The notes under the pieces were generated by a model. It saw only the letters and a program-made list of their open reading frames with translations. It made no database searches and was not told where the DNA came from. Source: Mycobacteriales bacterium (GTDB taxonomy: Bacteria > Actinomycetota > Actinomycetes > JAFAQI01). Taken from it: DNA of 64,000 nucleotides. Location of the stretch: the NCBI GenBank assembly GCA_035548055.1, contig DASZTL010000061.1:26827-90826 (forward strand), read 5' to 3'. Positions 18,511-21,443 of this stretch are shown here, in pieces. The first letter of the stretch is position 1; each line of letters begins with the position of its first letter. The position numbers and the translations under genes were made by a program.

Positions 18511-19280
18511 GCGAACCTGTCCTGTACGCCGTCGAGGGCGGCATCGGCATCATCACCCTGAACCGGCCCGACGCCCTCAACGCGTGGACCTTCGAGATGG
18601 GCGTGGAATACCTCCGCGTGCTCGACGAAGCGGCGGCCGACCGCGAGGCGAAGGTCCTCATCGTCACGGGTGCCGGTCGCGGCTTCTGCGCCGGCGCGGA
18701 CATGGGCAGCCTCAAGCAGCTGATCGCCGGGGAGCTCCCGCCGCCGGAAGGCGTTCGTGACGACTTCGCCACCGAGCCCGCCGTACCGAAGCCGGTCATC
18801 GCGGCGATCAACGGTCCGTGCGTCGGTCTCGGGCTGGCCCGTGCCCTCTACTGCGACATCCGATTCCTGCAACGCGGGACCAAGCTGTCCACGGCGTTCG
18901 CCCGCCGTGGCCTCCCGGCTGAAGACGGGCTCGCCTGGCTGATCCCGCGGATCGTCGGATGGTCGAAAGGTCTCGATCTCCTGCTGTCGGCGCGGACCGT
19001 GACAGATGAGGAGGCCCTGGCGCTCGGCCTGGTCAACCAGGTGGTGGACGACGCGCTTGCGTCGGCGAAGGAGTACGCCCGCGACATGGTCACGAACTGC
19101 TCGCCCGCGTCGCTTCGGGAGATCAAGGGCCAGATCTGGGGCGGGGCGGATAGCAGTCTGCAGGACGCCGACAAGCGAGCGAATGAGCTGCTGATGGCGG
19201 CCTTCAAGCGCCCCGACCTCAGCGAGAGCGTCGCGGCCTTCCTGGAGAAGCGCCCCCCAAACTTCCCACCCCTCACCTAG
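18507..19280 (+). CDS. Enoyl-CoA hydratase/isomerase family protein
   Basis: ITLNRPDALNA, GRGFCAGADM, KPVIAAINGPCVG; ATG at 18507 overlaps the upstream stop. Confidence 0.92.
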   Translation: MSEPVLYAVEGGIGIITLNRPDALNAWTFEMGVEYLRVLDEAAADREAKVLIVTGAGRGFCAGADMGSLKQLIAGELPPPEGVRDDFATEPAVPKPVIAAINGPCVGLGLARALYCDIRFLQRGTKLSTAFARRGLPAEDGLAWLIPRIVGWSKGLDLLLSARTVTDEEALALGLVNQVVDDALASAKEYARDMVTNCSPASLREIKGQIWGGADSSLQDADKRANELLMAAFKRPDLSESVAAFLEKRPPNFPPLT

Positions 19281-19289
19281 GCGCGACCT

Positions 19290-19358
19290 CCCCGGTGATC
19301 ATGAGCGCGAATTCACGACACGCCGCGTCGAAGGAATTTGCGCTCATGATCACCGGGG
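19290..19358. repeat. 69-bp palindromic element, left copy
   Basis: Arms 19290-19314 and 19334-19358 are complementary at 24 of 25 positions (one G-T); loop contains GACACGCCG. Confidence 0.9.
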
Positions 19359-19434
19359 TCGGTGGGCGAGAGATCTATCCACAGACCGGCGTTGGGCCGC
19401 TCAGTCAGCTCGCCAGCTCGCCGAGTGTGCGCTG

Positions 19435-20406
19435 GTGCATCTCGACACCGACCCTCGAGTGGCCGCGTTGGCCGCTACCCAGGACGGCCTGGTAACCGCC
19501 TCGCAAGCCCGCCGGCTTGGCTACAGCCGAAGTCGGATTGCGAACCTGATCCGCGCGCACCGCTGGCGCTCGCTCGCGCCCGGCGTCTATCTCGTCGACG
19601 CGTACCTGTTCGGTGATCCGCTGCCCGCTCGCACGTGGTGGCGCGCTGCGCTGCTGTTCAACGGAACCCAGTCATGTCTCGTTGCGTCGACTGCCATGCG
19701 GCTGTACGGCGTACATGGCCTTCGGCTTGCTGAGCCGCATATAGAGGTCGGCATCGTTGGAGGGCCGTCGCGCCACGGGCGGTGCGCGGCCGAGTTGCCA
19801 GCGCGGGGCCGCGACGAGTCGGCACCGAGATTCGTGGTCCGTCAGTTCAACATCGCCTCGGACGAGATCGAGCTGTACGACGATCTACAGGTACGGCGAT
19901 TCGCGATGTCGCTGGTGGATACCGCCTTGGAATCCGATCGCGCGACTGCGCTTGCGCTGCTCGATTCGGCCCTTCACAAAGGCCTGATATCTCGGGATGA
20001 CCTTTGGTGGCAGGTGGTTTGCGCAACGGGTCGGCGGGGAGTGGTCGCGCTACGCGAGTTGCTCACACTTGCCGACTCTCGGGCAGAGTCTCAGGTGGAG
20101 TCGAGAGTCCGACTGGCGTGTATTGACGGCAAGGTGGCACCGGATGACCTTCAGTTCCCAGTCCGTGACGAGTTCGGGAACCTGCTGGCCATCGGCGACA
20201 TGGCCTGGGTCAAAGGCCGCCGCCGACCGCTGATTGCCGAGGCTGACGGTGAAAGCGTGCATTCGCTCCCGCAGGCCGTCTACCGCGATCGGCGCCGGGG
20301 GAACTCGCTGGTTGCGCAGGCTTGCGACACGGTCCGCTTCACGTTCGCAGATTCGCTGCGCCCGGCGTACATCGTGAGTGTGGTGCGAGCAGCCCTCGCG
20401 GCCTGA
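19435..20406 (+). CDS. AbiEi-like N-terminal HTH plus C-terminal DUF559/Vsr-like PD-(D/E)xK endonuclease domain
   Basis: LAATQDGLVTASQARRLG...LAPGVY (AbiEi-type wHTH); AESQVESRVRL...GDMAW...AEADGESVH...DRRRGNSL...VRFT (ExDG..H nuclease pattern). Confidence 0.78.
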   Translation: MHLDTDPRVAALAATQDGLVTASQARRLGYSRSRIANLIRAHRWRSLAPGVYLVDAYLFGDPLPARTWWRAALLFNGTQSCLVASTAMRLYGVHGLRLAEPHIEVGIVGGPSRHGRCAAELPARGRDESAPRFVVRQFNIASDEIELYDDLQVRRFAMSLVDTALESDRATALALLDSALHKGLISRDDLWWQVVCATGRRGVVALRELLTLADSRAESQVESRVRLACIDGKVAPDDLQFPVRDEFGNLLAIGDMAWVKGRRRPLIAEADGESVHSLPQAVYRDRRRGNSLVAQACDTVRFTFADSLRPAYIVSVVRAALAA

Positions 20407-20409
20407 GAC

Positions 20410-20478
20410 CCCCGGTGATCATGGGCGCAAATTCAAGACACGCCGTCACGGACGAATTAGCGGTCATGATCACCGTGA
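20410..20478. repeat. 69-bp palindromic element, right copy (direct repeat of 19290-19358)
   Basis: Ungapped alignment to the left copy, 57/69 identical by manual count; keeps CGGTGATCATG/CATGATCACCG arms and the GACACGCCG loop. Confidence 0.9.
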
Positions 20479-21443
20479 TTTGAGGGTGGTTTCGAACCAG
20501 CGGCGAGGGTTGTCCACGAGGAGGGTCTCGATCGCGGCGTCGTCGACGCCGCGCTCTCGGAGTGCCGGCAACACGTCCTTGCTGATGTGCAGGAAGTTCC
20601 AGTCCGGGGCGGCTTGCAGGAACCGCGGCTCGGCCCAGTCGAAGTAGCACGAGGCGTCATGCGCGAGAGCCATCCGGTCGCCGTACCCGCGACGGATCAG
20701 CTCGGCGACCATCTCCACACGCTCGTCGAACGGCCGGTACACGTTGACACCGAAGCGATCCATGCCAAGCAGGTAGCCGTGCTCCGCGAGGGCGCTCAAA
20801 TGGTCCGCGTCGCCTGAGTCCCCGCTATGCGCCAGGCACACCGCCCCAGGCTCGACGCCCTCCTCCTGCAGGACATTGTGAACCTCAAGGCCGCGCTGGG
20901 TGCCGGGATGCGTGTGCACCATCACCGGGGCGCCGGTGCGAAGGTGAGCCTGCGCGACCGCGCGCAGCACCCGCTCGACGCCGGGCAGCATGCCCTCCTC
21001 GTCGATCGCGCACTTGAGGAAGGCGGCACGTACGCCGGTGTCGCCGATCCCGTCGGTGATGTCCGTGACGAACATGTCGACCATCGGGTCCGGGGCGTTG
21101 ATGCCCGGCAGGAACGGTCCGCGTAGCCGGAAGTACTTCGGTACGTCGTTGTAGGTGTACACACCCGTCGCGACGATGATGTTGAGCTCGATCTGCTGGG
21201 CGATCTCCACGATCCTGGGGATGTAGCGACCAAGCCCGATCACGGTTGGATCGACGATGGTGTCGATTCCGGCTTCCTTCAGCGCCGTGAGCTTCGTGAT
21301 CGCGTCTTCGACGTTGCGCTCCTCGTCCCAGTCCGTCTTGAAGTTCGCCTGGACCTCGGTCGTCATGACGAAGACGTGCTCGTGGATGAGCGTCCGCCCC
21401 ATGCCTGCGGTGTCGATCACACCGCGTGCGGTGGGGAGCCGCA

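What the first reader, a model, noticed from the sequence alone, without database searches (positions are those of the whole stretch)
19290..20478. Candidate selfish element: AbiEi/Vsr-like nuclease gene bracketed by two 69-bp hairpin direct repeats
Seen directly: two same-orientation 69-bp copies (19290-19358 and 20410-20478; 57/69 identical, ungapped). Each folds into a long hairpin (left 24/25 bp, right 19/22 bp WC with a perfect 11-bp CGGTGATCATG core) and keeps GACACGCCG in the loop, while neighbouring loop bases diverge. Between them is one gene with an AbiEi-type wHTH and an ExDG..H PD-(D/E)xK nuclease domain, whose stop lies 3 nt from the right copy. The unit sits between two convergent metabolic genes. 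Inference: the layout parallels REP/RAYT and IS200/IS605 elements, where a hairpin-recognising nuclease is flanked by its palindromic substrates, but the enzyme here is not an HUH transposase. It may be a hairpin-guided mobile or repeat-propagating element usually annotated as a toxin-antitoxin protein. No cognate AbiEii toxin is adjacent.
Basis: partly seen in the sequence, partly recalled or inferred. Interest (0 to 1): 0.78.

Follow-up and report, generated by a model that had tools for sequence, protein, structure and literature searches.

The report
Nuclease gene bracketed by cognate palindromes
A gene for a DNA-binding nuclease sits between two copies of a 69-base hairpin-forming repeat that is also scattered behind other genes of the same actinobacterium, and gene and repeat type are gained, lost and exchanged together among relatives, much like the known REP/RAYT repeat-and-enzyme partnership but with an unrelated enzyme and no published description that I could find.

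Summary
Two same-orientation 69-nt palindromes (57/69 identical) bracket a 323-aa ORF between convergent enoyl-CoA hydratase and phosphotriesterase genes.

The protein is a full AbiEi-like DNA-binding module fused to a Vsr/EDxHD-type PD-(D/E)xK nuclease. Its catalytic residues are conserved and dN/dS is about 0.1.

The palindrome is one of a dispersed family: 9 'type A' copies in this 3.1-Mb MAG, the 7 solo copies in tiny spacers, mostly just past a stop codon.

- Each of the four distant paralogues of the gene in the genome is followed by its own, different hairpin family. Three are bracketed on both sides; the fourth is cut by a contig end.
- 28 of 30 paralogues in 10 relatives have matching flank repeats.
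- All 12 family genomes with the gene have the cognate hairpins. Twenty of 24 without it have none.
- One relative carries a different gene lineage, inverted, at the same site, and all its hairpins are of the matching type.
- Clean empty sites exist.

The gene-repeat partnership is therefore real. That the nuclease binds, cuts and so spreads or homogenises the hairpins is inferred, not shown (about 50%). No publication describes this. The closest known systems are REP/RAYT and, for the solo hairpins, mycobacterial TRIT.

The parts
19290..19358 (.). Left copy of the 69-nt 'type A' palindrome. It has 25-nt arms starting CCCCGGTGATCATGAGCGCGAATTC and a 19-nt asymmetric loop with ACGACACGCCG. It starts 9 nt after the TAG stop of the enoyl-CoA hydratase gene (19278-19280).
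   Evidence: family membership
19359..19434 (+). 76-nt leader between the left palindrome and the GTG start. It holds a conserved TCCACA box (19378-19383, in CTATCCACAGAC), which is DnaA-box-like.
   Evidence: the box is present within 130 nt upstream of the start in 11 of 14 ortholog loci, against 3% of random 130-nt windows. It is also visible in most paralogue loci.
19435..20406 (+). 323-aa ORF. Residues 8-205 form an AbiEi-like winged-helix DNA-binding module. The C-terminal ~120 residues form a Vsr/EDxHD-type PD-(D/E)xK nuclease domain.
   Evidence: Pfam AbiEi_4. PADLOC AbiEi models match residues 8-205. AF2 model: pLDDT 89. Foldseek: 6Y8Q AbiEi at E 2e-5 and 3R3P I-Bth0305I nuclease at prob 0.99. 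dN/dS is 0.09-0.14.
19456..19596 (+). Winged helix-turn-helix (AbiEi_4, residues 8-54).
   Evidence: E 1.2e-7, above the gathering score
20047..20403 (+). Nuclease domain. S219, E222, D255, E269 and G272 are invariant even against 21-25%-identical paralogues. D271 and H276 are invariant in orthologues (motif IAEADGESVH).
20410..20478 (.). Right copy of the type A palindrome, in the same loop orientation. It has 22-nt arms and begins 3 nt after the gene's stop. It is about 95% identical to the solo copy at G000:C61:8720, which lies outside the window.
20470..20472 (-). TGA stop codon of the phosphotriesterase gene. It lies inside the right arm of the right palindrome, so the insertion rewrote the last codons of that gene (TTLKSR* here, against TADAGPR* at an empty site).

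Best explanation
The segment is one unit of a gene-repeat partnership that is widespread in Actinobacteria.

The unit has four parts: a palindrome, a leader with a TCCACA box, a gene, and a second palindrome. The gene is single-copy and mostly vertically inherited. It encodes a sequence-specific DNA binder (an AbiEi-like winged-helix module) fused to a Vsr/homing-endonuclease-type nuclease. The flanking ~69-bp palindrome is the gene's own cognate repeat. The same repeat also occupies a handful of 'slots' in very short spacers, mostly just past the stop codon of an unrelated gene.

Proposed mechanism (inferred):
1. The protein binds the palindrome as a dimer. Candidate contacts are the apex box GACACGCC(n)GGCGTGTC and/or the basal TGATCATG box.
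2. It nicks or cuts there.
3. Repair from another copy (gene conversion, as in homing) keeps the copies alike, converts or seeds slots, and can carry the gene-bearing copy into a slot in either orientation, because the arms are palindromic.
4. The upstream copy and the TCCACA box probably also control the gene's own expression.

Shown here: the anatomy, the fold and conserved catalytic residues, purifying selection, cognate gene-repeat matching, co-occurrence and co-loss across genomes, type switching, and empty sites.

Inferred: binding, cleavage and the propagation mechanism.
For: 1. Dispersed family. There are 9 gaplessly alignable type A copies in G000, all intergenic. Seven of the 9, and six of the 7 solo copies, lie 2-10 nt from a stop codon.

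2. Cognate matching within the genome. The four distant paralogues (21-25% identical) are each followed by their own distinct hairpin family, with about 8-19 copies each. Three are bracketed on both sides; the C25 paralogue is cut by a contig end. The only three multi-copy long-hairpin families in the genome (19, 13 and 7+ copies) are exactly those that bracket such genes.

3. Generality. Every ortholog locus with both flanks on its contig (11 genomes, 30-83% identity) is bracketed by a within-genome-similar pair. So are 28 of 30 paralogue loci in 10 relatives.

4. Co-occurrence.
- The pattern GATCATG-N8-16-GACACGCC gives at least 3 hits in 12 of 12 gene-bearing genomes of the family and at most 2 hits in 20 of 24 gene-less ones (Fisher p = 1.5e-6). 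Contrasts inside four genera go the same way.
- Four same-genus genomes lack the gene and have no such hairpins, although they interleave with gene-bearing genomes on a PTE tree.

5. Type switching. G011 carries a different gene lineage, which falls outside the type A clade, inverted at the same ECH/PTE site. All 13 of its hairpins are 'type B', including at slots where G000 has type A.

6. Genome-specific compensatory change. Four of G010's five copies share a paired stem change (TGATCC/GGATCA) at four different slots.

7. Stem covariation. 7 of 18 pairs show changes on both sides. The covariation score is 0.147 against 0.088 in shuffles (0 of 500 shuffles reach it).

8. Empty sites. Clean empty sites exist at ECH/PTE and at slots S3-S9.

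9. Protein. The AbiEi-plus-I-Bth0305I-like fold, invariant acidic residues and dN/dS of 0.09-0.14 point to an active enzyme. AbiEi proteins are known to bind inverted repeats (PMC7319586, PMC3985639).
Against: - No biochemical or read-level evidence was available.
- Copy numbers are small (5-20), against hundreds for REPs.
- Four gene-less genomes still hold 4-15 cognate-type hairpins: G001, G031, G008 and G009. Two of these assemblies are poor and one has a gene relic.
- Across type A copies, identity by genome (0.734) is barely above identity by slot (0.718), so homogenisation is not general.
- Many slots are shared between genomes, which fits slow vertical descent as well as targeting.
- The co-occurrence counts include the gene's own two flanking copies. 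Solo copies remain in all 12 gene-bearing genomes after subtracting them, but the margin shrinks.
Confidence: 0.5

Rival explanations
1. The hairpins are host 3'-end elements of the TRIT/REP kind: transcript-end or RNase III processing sites, mRNA stabilisers or insulators. They spread by a mechanism unrelated to this protein. The protein is a regulator or nuclease that uses the palindrome only as its own operator and insulator, so the two flanking copies serve gene expression, not repeat propagation.
For: - Six of the 7 solo copies lie 2-10 nt past a stop codon, even inside operons (acn, sucB, hspR-clpB).
- TRIT in mycobacteria is a published family of palindromes overlapping stop codons (PMC3152330, PMC13714241).
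- AbiEi autoregulates through inverted repeats (PMC7319586).
- A conserved TCCACA box lies in the leader.
Against: - It does not explain why every paralogue has its own family, and why the only long-hairpin families are those with a gene.
- It does not explain why hairpins vanish from all slots when the gene is lost, or switch type when the gene lineage is replaced.
- The hairpins lack U-tracts, and no terminator-like site was found.
Confidence: 0.2
2. The whole hairpin-gene-hairpin unit is an autonomous mobile cassette, with the hairpins as its ends. Solo hairpins are what remains after recombination between the two flanking copies deletes the gene, or are MITE-like derivatives.
For: - The gene has a patchy distribution: 12 of 36 genomes of the family.
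- Its context differs in five genera.
- There is a relic with a half hairpin in G009, and a different lineage inverted at the same site in G011.
- GC3 is lower than in the neighbours (0.74 against 0.88).
Against: - The gene sits at the same ECH/PTE locus in at least 7 genomes of three genera.
- There is one copy per type per genome.
- No target-site duplication is evident at filled/empty comparisons.
- Solo copies sit in 0-30-nt spacers with no gene remnants.
- Paralogue loci are syntenic across the genus.
Confidence: 0.15
3. The two palindromes are recombination sites of a programmed inversion switch (an inverton) that flips the gene.
For: [quoted passage not shown]
- The gene is inverted in G011, and the relative orientation of the loops differs between genomes.
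Against: - The leader and TCCACA box lie inside the unit, so flipping would not uncouple the gene from its control region.
- No recombinase gene is adjacent.
- In this window the asymmetric loops are in direct orientation.
- This reading does not explain the solo copies.
Confidence: 0.05

Closest known systems
REP/REPIN-RAYT systems ('REPtrons') of Proteobacteria (PMC3116915, PMC3337134)
   Same: - A single-copy, mostly vertically inherited enzyme gene is flanked by its own palindromic repeat.
- The same repeat is dispersed in extragenic positions near gene ends.
- Several gene-repeat pairs, each with its own repeat type, coexist in one genome.
- Repeats dwindle where the gene is lost.
   Different: - The enzyme is a winged-helix plus PD-(D/E)xK (Vsr/EDxHD) nuclease, not an HUH Y1 transposase.
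- There are 5-20 copies, not hundreds.
- The units are single long palindromes (55-80 nt) with a conserved asymmetric or palindromic apex, not short REPs in REPIN doublets.
- No activity has been demonstrated.
TRIT, the 'Tuberculosis Rho-independent terminator' motif of Mycobacterium (PMC3152330; PMC13714241)
   Same: - Well-conserved palindromic hairpins are dispersed through the genome, sit at or over stop codons, and are bidirectional.
- They occur in a related order of Actinobacteria.
- Their function is disputed.
   Different: - TRIT has 147 copies and its own consensus, and the papers read here name no partner gene for it.
- I could not compare sequences or test whether family members in Mycobacterium are bracketed by TRIT.
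AbiEi antitoxin of the type IV AbiE toxin-antitoxin / abortive-infection system (6Y8Q; PMC3985639, PMC7319586)
   Same: The N-terminal ~200 residues match AbiEi in sequence (Pfam, PADLOC) and fold. AbiEi binds inverted repeats.
   Different: There is no AbiEii (DUF1814) toxin gene next to it. A nuclease domain is fused to the C-terminus, and the gene is monocistronic between hairpins.
I-Bth0305I and the EDxHD/Vsr-like homing endonucleases (3R3P; PMC3239194)
   Same: The fold of the catalytic domain matches. A homing-type cut-and-copy mechanism would fit the data.
   Different: The gene is not inside an intron or intein. Its DNA-binding part is AbiEi-like, and its presumed target is a dispersed palindrome rather than an intron-less allele.
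IS200/IS605 elements and their PATE/MITE derivatives
   Same: Hairpins lie at the ends of a one-gene unit, and gene-less hairpin copies occur elsewhere.
   Different: There is no TnpA or TnpB. The two ends here are copies of the same complete palindrome.

Membership tests
REP/RAYT (REPtron) | The enzyme is an HUH Y1 (IS200/IS605-like) transposase | tested here: not met
   Pfam, NCBIfam and PADLOC show only AbiEi. The fold is AbiEi plus a Vsr-like nuclease.
REP/RAYT (REPtron) | The gene is flanked on both sides by its cognate palindromic repeat | tested here: met
REP/RAYT (REPtron) | The same repeat is dispersed in extragenic positions, and its presence tracks the gene | tested here: met
   9 copies in G000. 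At least 3 pattern hits in 12/12 gene-bearing genomes against 4/24 gene-less ones. Copy number is far lower than for REPs.
REP/RAYT (REPtron) | The repeats form REPIN doublets (two inverted REPs plus a spacer) | tested here: inconclusive
   Each copy is one long palindrome, which could be read as two inverted half-sites around a 19-nt spacer. No separate doublets were seen.
AbiE type IV toxin-antitoxin system | AbiEi-type winged-helix antitoxin | tested here: met
   PF13338 at E 1.2e-7. PADLOC AbiEi models match residues 8-205. 6Y8Q at E 2e-5.
AbiE type IV toxin-antitoxin system | An adjacent AbiEii (DUF1814 nucleotidyltransferase) toxin gene in one operon | tested here: not met
   The neighbours are ECH and phosphotriesterase, and hairpins lie on both sides.
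DUF559 / Vsr-like PD-(D/E)xK nucleases | Vsr-type nuclease fold with conserved acidic and His residues | tested here: met
   3R3P at prob 0.99 and TM 0.66. E222, D255 and E269 are invariant; D271 and H276 are invariant in orthologues.
DUF559 / Vsr-like PD-(D/E)xK nucleases | Match to Pfam PF04480 above the gathering score | tested here: not met
   There is no PF04480 hit for this protein, only a weak PF18741 hit at E 0.046. Some homologues carry PF04480 or PF18741.
Homing endonuclease (EDxHD family) | Encoded within a self-splicing intron or intein, and cuts the empty allele | tested here: not met
   The gene is free-standing between two protein genes. Cleavage is not testable here.
TRIT (Mycobacterium) | Conserved palindromic hairpin positioned at or over stop codons | tested here: met
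   7 of 9 copies lie within 10 nt of a stop codon, and the PTE stop lies inside one copy.
TRIT (Mycobacterium) | Match to the TRIT consensus or covariance model | not testable with these tools
MITE / IS-type transposon | Terminal inverted repeats with a target-site duplication | tested here: inconclusive
   No duplication is evident at the filled/empty pairs. TGATCA is self-complementary and stands at both ends, so a 6-bp duplication cannot be excluded.

The most novel reading that the evidence does not exclude
AbiEi-winged-helix/Vsr-nuclease genes and their lineage-specific palindromes would be a second, independently evolved class of enzyme-dependent intragenomic replicator, analogous to REPIN-RAYT.

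In this reading it works by hairpin-targeted cutting and copy-repair (homing onto palindromes) rather than HUH transposition. This would explain the long dispersed palindromes at gene ends across Actinobacteria, possibly including the mycobacterial TRIT elements whose origin and function are unresolved. It would also re-annotate a very large set of 'AbiEi antitoxin / DUF559' proteins: 15,475 clusters at 50% identity at E <= 1e-10.
Probability: 0.4. Interest if true: 0.9.

Novelty: new variant of a known kind. Interest (0 to 1): 0.75.

Why it matters
If the nuclease does maintain or spread its palindromes, several things follow.

- Actinobacteria would hold a large, unrecognised class of enzyme-repeat partnerships built on a different enzyme from RAYT. 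That would show that this lifestyle evolved at least twice.
- It would give a cause for the conserved hairpins that sit on stop codons in high-GC Gram-positives. These are currently argued to be terminators or RNase III sites.
- It would correct the annotation of a very large set of proteins now called antitoxins or DUF559. The profile finds 15,475 clusters at 50% identity at E <= 1e-10.
- It would offer a natural set of nucleases with co-evolving 50-80-bp palindromic targets.

Even without the mechanism, the rule 'gene bracketed by its own dispersed palindrome' is a useful annotation signature. It also warns against reading these genes as toxin-antitoxin or defence loci.

Tried and rejected
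**Searches that found nothing**
- Rfam at E <= 10 found only chance miRNA-like matches to the hairpins.
- Sequence searches of the PDB with the protein and with a 64-sequence profile found nothing. NCBIfam found nothing.
- The promoter/terminator consensus scan found no site.
- Literature searches for DUF559 with palindromes or repeats, for AbiEi with DUF559, and for RAYT or REPIN with Actinobacteria found no description. The only mention is one table row on predicted inversion targets.

I could therefore not look for excision, inversion or conversion junctions in reads.

**Ideas dropped**
- My first reading was that the two hairpins are ordinary REP-like insertions that happen to lie either side of an unrelated accessory gene. 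I dropped it.

**Analyses that were uninformative or inconclusive**
- Picking the most stable 90-nt fold to find hairpins in slot regions was useless in this 68% GC DNA. I replaced it by reading the spacer after the stop codon.
- Comparing identity by slot with identity by genome gave a mixed answer (0.718 against 0.734).
- A test of whether orphan hairpins are more decayed was suggestive only. Type C without a gene pairs worst, but n = 4 and the ungapped measure is crude.
- A target-site duplication or a GTGATCAC target was considered. G007 has CGTGATCACGCG at two slots, but other empty sites lack it, so it may be a deletion footprint rather than a target.
Full report
**1. The observation**

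The window is G000:C61:26827-90826 of a 3.13-Mb, 112-contig, 68% GC actinobacterial MAG that is 87% complete. Its closest named relatives are 'Mycobacteriales bacterium' and 'Frankiaceae bacterium' MAGs.

- Positions 19290-19358 and 20410-20478 are 57/69 identical, ungapped and in the same orientation.
- The left copy has 25-nt arms that are 96% complementary around a 19-nt loop. The right copy has 22-nt arms that are 86% complementary.
- The folds are far more stable than shuffles for the left copy (z = -8.8) and moderately so for the right (z = -3.0).
- CGGTGATCATG occurs exactly only in the four arms.
- The ORF 19435-20406 ends 3 nt before the right copy. It lies between an enoyl-CoA hydratase gene (stop at 19278-19280) and a convergent phosphotriesterase gene. 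The TGA stop of the latter (20470-20472) is inside the right arm.

**2. The protein**

- Pfam finds only AbiEi_4 (residues 8-54). PADLOC AbiEi models cover residues 8-205.
- An AlphaFold model from 64 homologues is confident: pLDDT 89, pTM 0.87.
- Foldseek matches the first ~200 residues to the AbiEi antitoxin 6Y8Q (E 2e-5). It matches the last ~100 residues to the catalytic domain of the Vsr-like homing endonuclease I-Bth0305I, 3R3P (prob 0.99, TM 0.66), with weaker TnsA and VRR-NUC hits.
- S219, E222, D255, E269 and G272 are invariant even against paralogues only 21-25% identical. D271 and H276 are invariant among orthologues.
- dN/dS against the G006 and G005 orthologues is 0.09 and 0.14.
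- GC3 is 0.74, against 0.88 in both neighbours.
- The superfamily is very large: 33,607 clusters at 50% identity at E <= 1e-3.
- No AbiEii gene is adjacent.

**3. The hairpin is a dispersed family**

- BLAST of the 69-mer finds nine places in G000.
- Oriented by the loop, all nine copies align without gaps. The arms and the 5' loop half (GACACGCCGTAC) are conserved, and the 3' loop half is variable.
- All copies are intergenic. Seven of the nine lie 2-10 nt from a stop codon. Several sit in very short spacers between co-directional genes, for example after aconitase, sucB and hspR.
- On 28 type A copies from four genomes, 90.5% of stem cells pair. Seven of 18 pairs show changes on both sides, and the covariation score exceeds all 500 shuffles.
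- No Rfam family matches. The hairpins have no U-tract.

**4. Every relative of the gene has its own hairpin pair**

- The 11 genomes with an orthologue (30-83% identity) in which both flanks lie on the contig all have the gene bracketed by two long hairpins. In G010 the gene is split across two contigs, each half next to its flank copy.
- The two hairpins resemble each other within a genome but differ between genomes. Their relative orientation is direct in some genomes (G000, G006) and inverted in others (G013, G021, G011).
- G000's four distant paralogues are each followed by a different hairpin: the C20, C42, C111 and C25 types. Three are bracketed on both sides. The upstream flank of the C25 paralogue is cut by the contig end. 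Each type is itself dispersed, with about 8-19 copies.
- A de novo scan for long hairpins in G000 finds only three multi-copy families (19, 13 and 7+ copies). Each of them brackets a superfamily gene.
- Ten relatives carry 4-14 superfamily genes each. 28 of 30 fetched loci have matching upstream and downstream repeats, and one of the two misses is cut by a contig end.

The association is therefore a rule of the superfamily in this lineage, not a coincidence of this locus.

**5. Does the repeat go with the gene?**

- With the specific pattern GATCATG-N8-16-GACACGCC, all 12 gene-bearing genomes of the GTDB family have 3-15 hits.
- Twenty of 24 gene-less genomes have at most 2 hits, mostly a single hit in a conserved coding sequence.
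- The exceptions are G001 (53% complete), G031 (580 contigs), G008, and G009, which holds a relic of the gene.
- Fisher p = 1.5e-6.
- Caveat: the gene's own flanks contribute up to 2-4 hits. Solo copies remain in all 12 gene-bearing genomes after subtracting them.
- Contrasts within four genera (g1, g3, g5, g8) go the same way.

Within the window's own genus:
- Type A hairpins occur in the four genomes with a type A gene: G000, G005, G006 and G010.
- Type B hairpins occur in G011, whose gene falls outside the type A clade.
- G002, G003, G004 and G007 have neither the gene nor any such hairpin. On a phosphotriesterase tree they interleave with the gene-bearing genomes. This is a single-gene tree with modest support.

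**6. Slots, empty sites and replacement**

The ECH/PTE site differs between genomes:
- It is cleanly empty in G003 and G012, where the convergent stop codons overlap or nearly touch.
- It holds only GCGTGATCACGC in G007 and TGATCAC in G004.
- It holds one hairpin of another, genome-native family in G002 and G008.
- It holds a ~290-nt relic with a half hairpin in G009.
- It holds the type B gene in inverted orientation in G011.

Most solo sites are orthologous 'slots' shared between genomes, but the occupant follows the genome:
- G008 has type C where G000, G005 and G006 have type A.
- G000 has C20-type hairpins where G005 has type A and where G006 and G008 have type C.
- G011 has type B at four slots where G000 has type A. 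One of these copies is decayed.
- The hairpin-free genomes have spacers of 0-30 nt at those slots.
- One slot is empty in G000 and filled in G006.

Evidence on homogenisation is mixed:
- Four of G010's five copies share a genome-specific compensatory stem change at four slots.
- The right-hand copy in the window is about 95% identical to the solo at C61:8720, but only 83% identical to the left copy.
- Overall, identity by genome (0.734) is only marginally above identity by slot (0.718).
- Homogenisation is therefore episodic, not pervasive.

**7. Interpretation**

The partnership itself is, in my judgement, established (about 0.9).

The mechanism is inferred. A dimeric winged-helix module would read the palindrome, and the Vsr/EDxHD domain would cut it. 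Copy-repair from other copies would then homogenise, convert or seed slots, and would occasionally carry the gene-bearing copy into a slot in either orientation. This accounts for the following:
- cognate matching;
- co-loss;
- type switching at fixed slots;
- the inverted, replaced gene in G011;
- the two full palindromes at the gene's flanks.

I give this about 0.5. The rivals are:
- host 3'-end elements of the TRIT kind, plus an autoregulated nuclease (0.2);
- an autonomous cassette whose deletions leave solo copies (0.15);
- an inverton (0.05).

**8. What is known**

The library holds no description of this arrangement.
- DUF559 appears only as a row in a table of predicted inversion targets (PMC9881135).
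- REP/RAYT (PMC3116915, PMC3337134) is the closest system in logic, but its defining HUH transposase is absent.
- TRIT (PMC3152330, PMC13714241) is the closest published analogue of the solo hairpins. The papers read here name no partner gene for it.
- This scan has flagged the same layout in about 89 other genomes. I treat those notes as leads only.

**9. Verdict**

I rate it a new variant of a known kind, with interest 0.75.

Noticed in passing
window 19378-19383 (TCCACA in CTATCCACAGAC); same position in loci L014, L016, L018-L022, L024-L026: A DnaA-box-like TCCACA/TGTGGA motif lies between the upstream hairpin and the start codon in 11 of 14 ortholog loci, against 3% of random 130-nt windows. 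It is also visible in most paralogue loci, often as TTGTGGA(C/T)GG. It could be an operator, a promoter element or a DnaA box.
   Followed up: partly
G000:C20:11839-12759; also C42, C111, C25, C89, C14 and C52 (outside the window): The MAG holds 8 ORFs of this superfamily. The C20-type hairpin (GCGGTGATCTTGACGT..., 13-16 copies) and the C42-type hairpin (CAAGCAATGTGGCATTGC..., 13-19 copies) are more numerous than the type A family studied here. The type A/B/C and C20-type hairpins all begin with GGTGATC and end with GATCACC.
   Followed up: partly
L028 (G007 ECH/PTE site) and L104 (G007 hspR-clpB spacer): G007 has no hairpins of this family but has CGTGATCACGCG at two slots where relatives carry them. 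TGATCA is self-complementary and stands at both ends of each hairpin. This could therefore be a deletion footprint (slippage between the two TGATCA) or an unoccupied target.
   Followed up: partly
alignment A3, columns 9 and 47 (window 19304/19344 and 20424/20464): At one stem position, half of the 28 type A copies are mismatched (G or C on both arms; 7 CG, 7 GC, 14 unpaired). It looks as if two arm variants (AGCGC and ACCGC) have been recombined into chimeras.
   Followed up: no
G000:C48:~129790-129860: G000 carries a single type B hairpin (GATCATGGCGTTTGAGGCACAACACGCC...) without a type B gene, at a slot where G005 and G006 have type A. It is an orphan copy of the family that G011 uses.
   Followed up: partly
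window 20470-20490: The hairpin insertion rewrote the C-terminus of the phosphotriesterase: ...ETTLKSR* here, against ...ETADAGPR* at the empty site of G003. It also supplies the gene's stop codon.
   Followed up: partly
G052 (another family of the same class): G052 has 65 copies of a 56-nt element, GATCATGCTCGAA..N..TTCGAGCATGATC, with the same GATCATG ends but a poorly paired interior. This is an unrelated-looking, much larger repeat family. I did not examine it for a partner gene.
   Followed up: no
G022, G029, G033 (genus g12): There are tandem pairs of a shorter ~30-nt palindrome, GTGATCATGGCGTTCGCAGCC..GCAAACGCCATGATCAC, with 10-19 copies per genome. None of the three G022 paralogue loci I fetched carried this type, so its partner, if any, is unidentified.
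   Followed up: no
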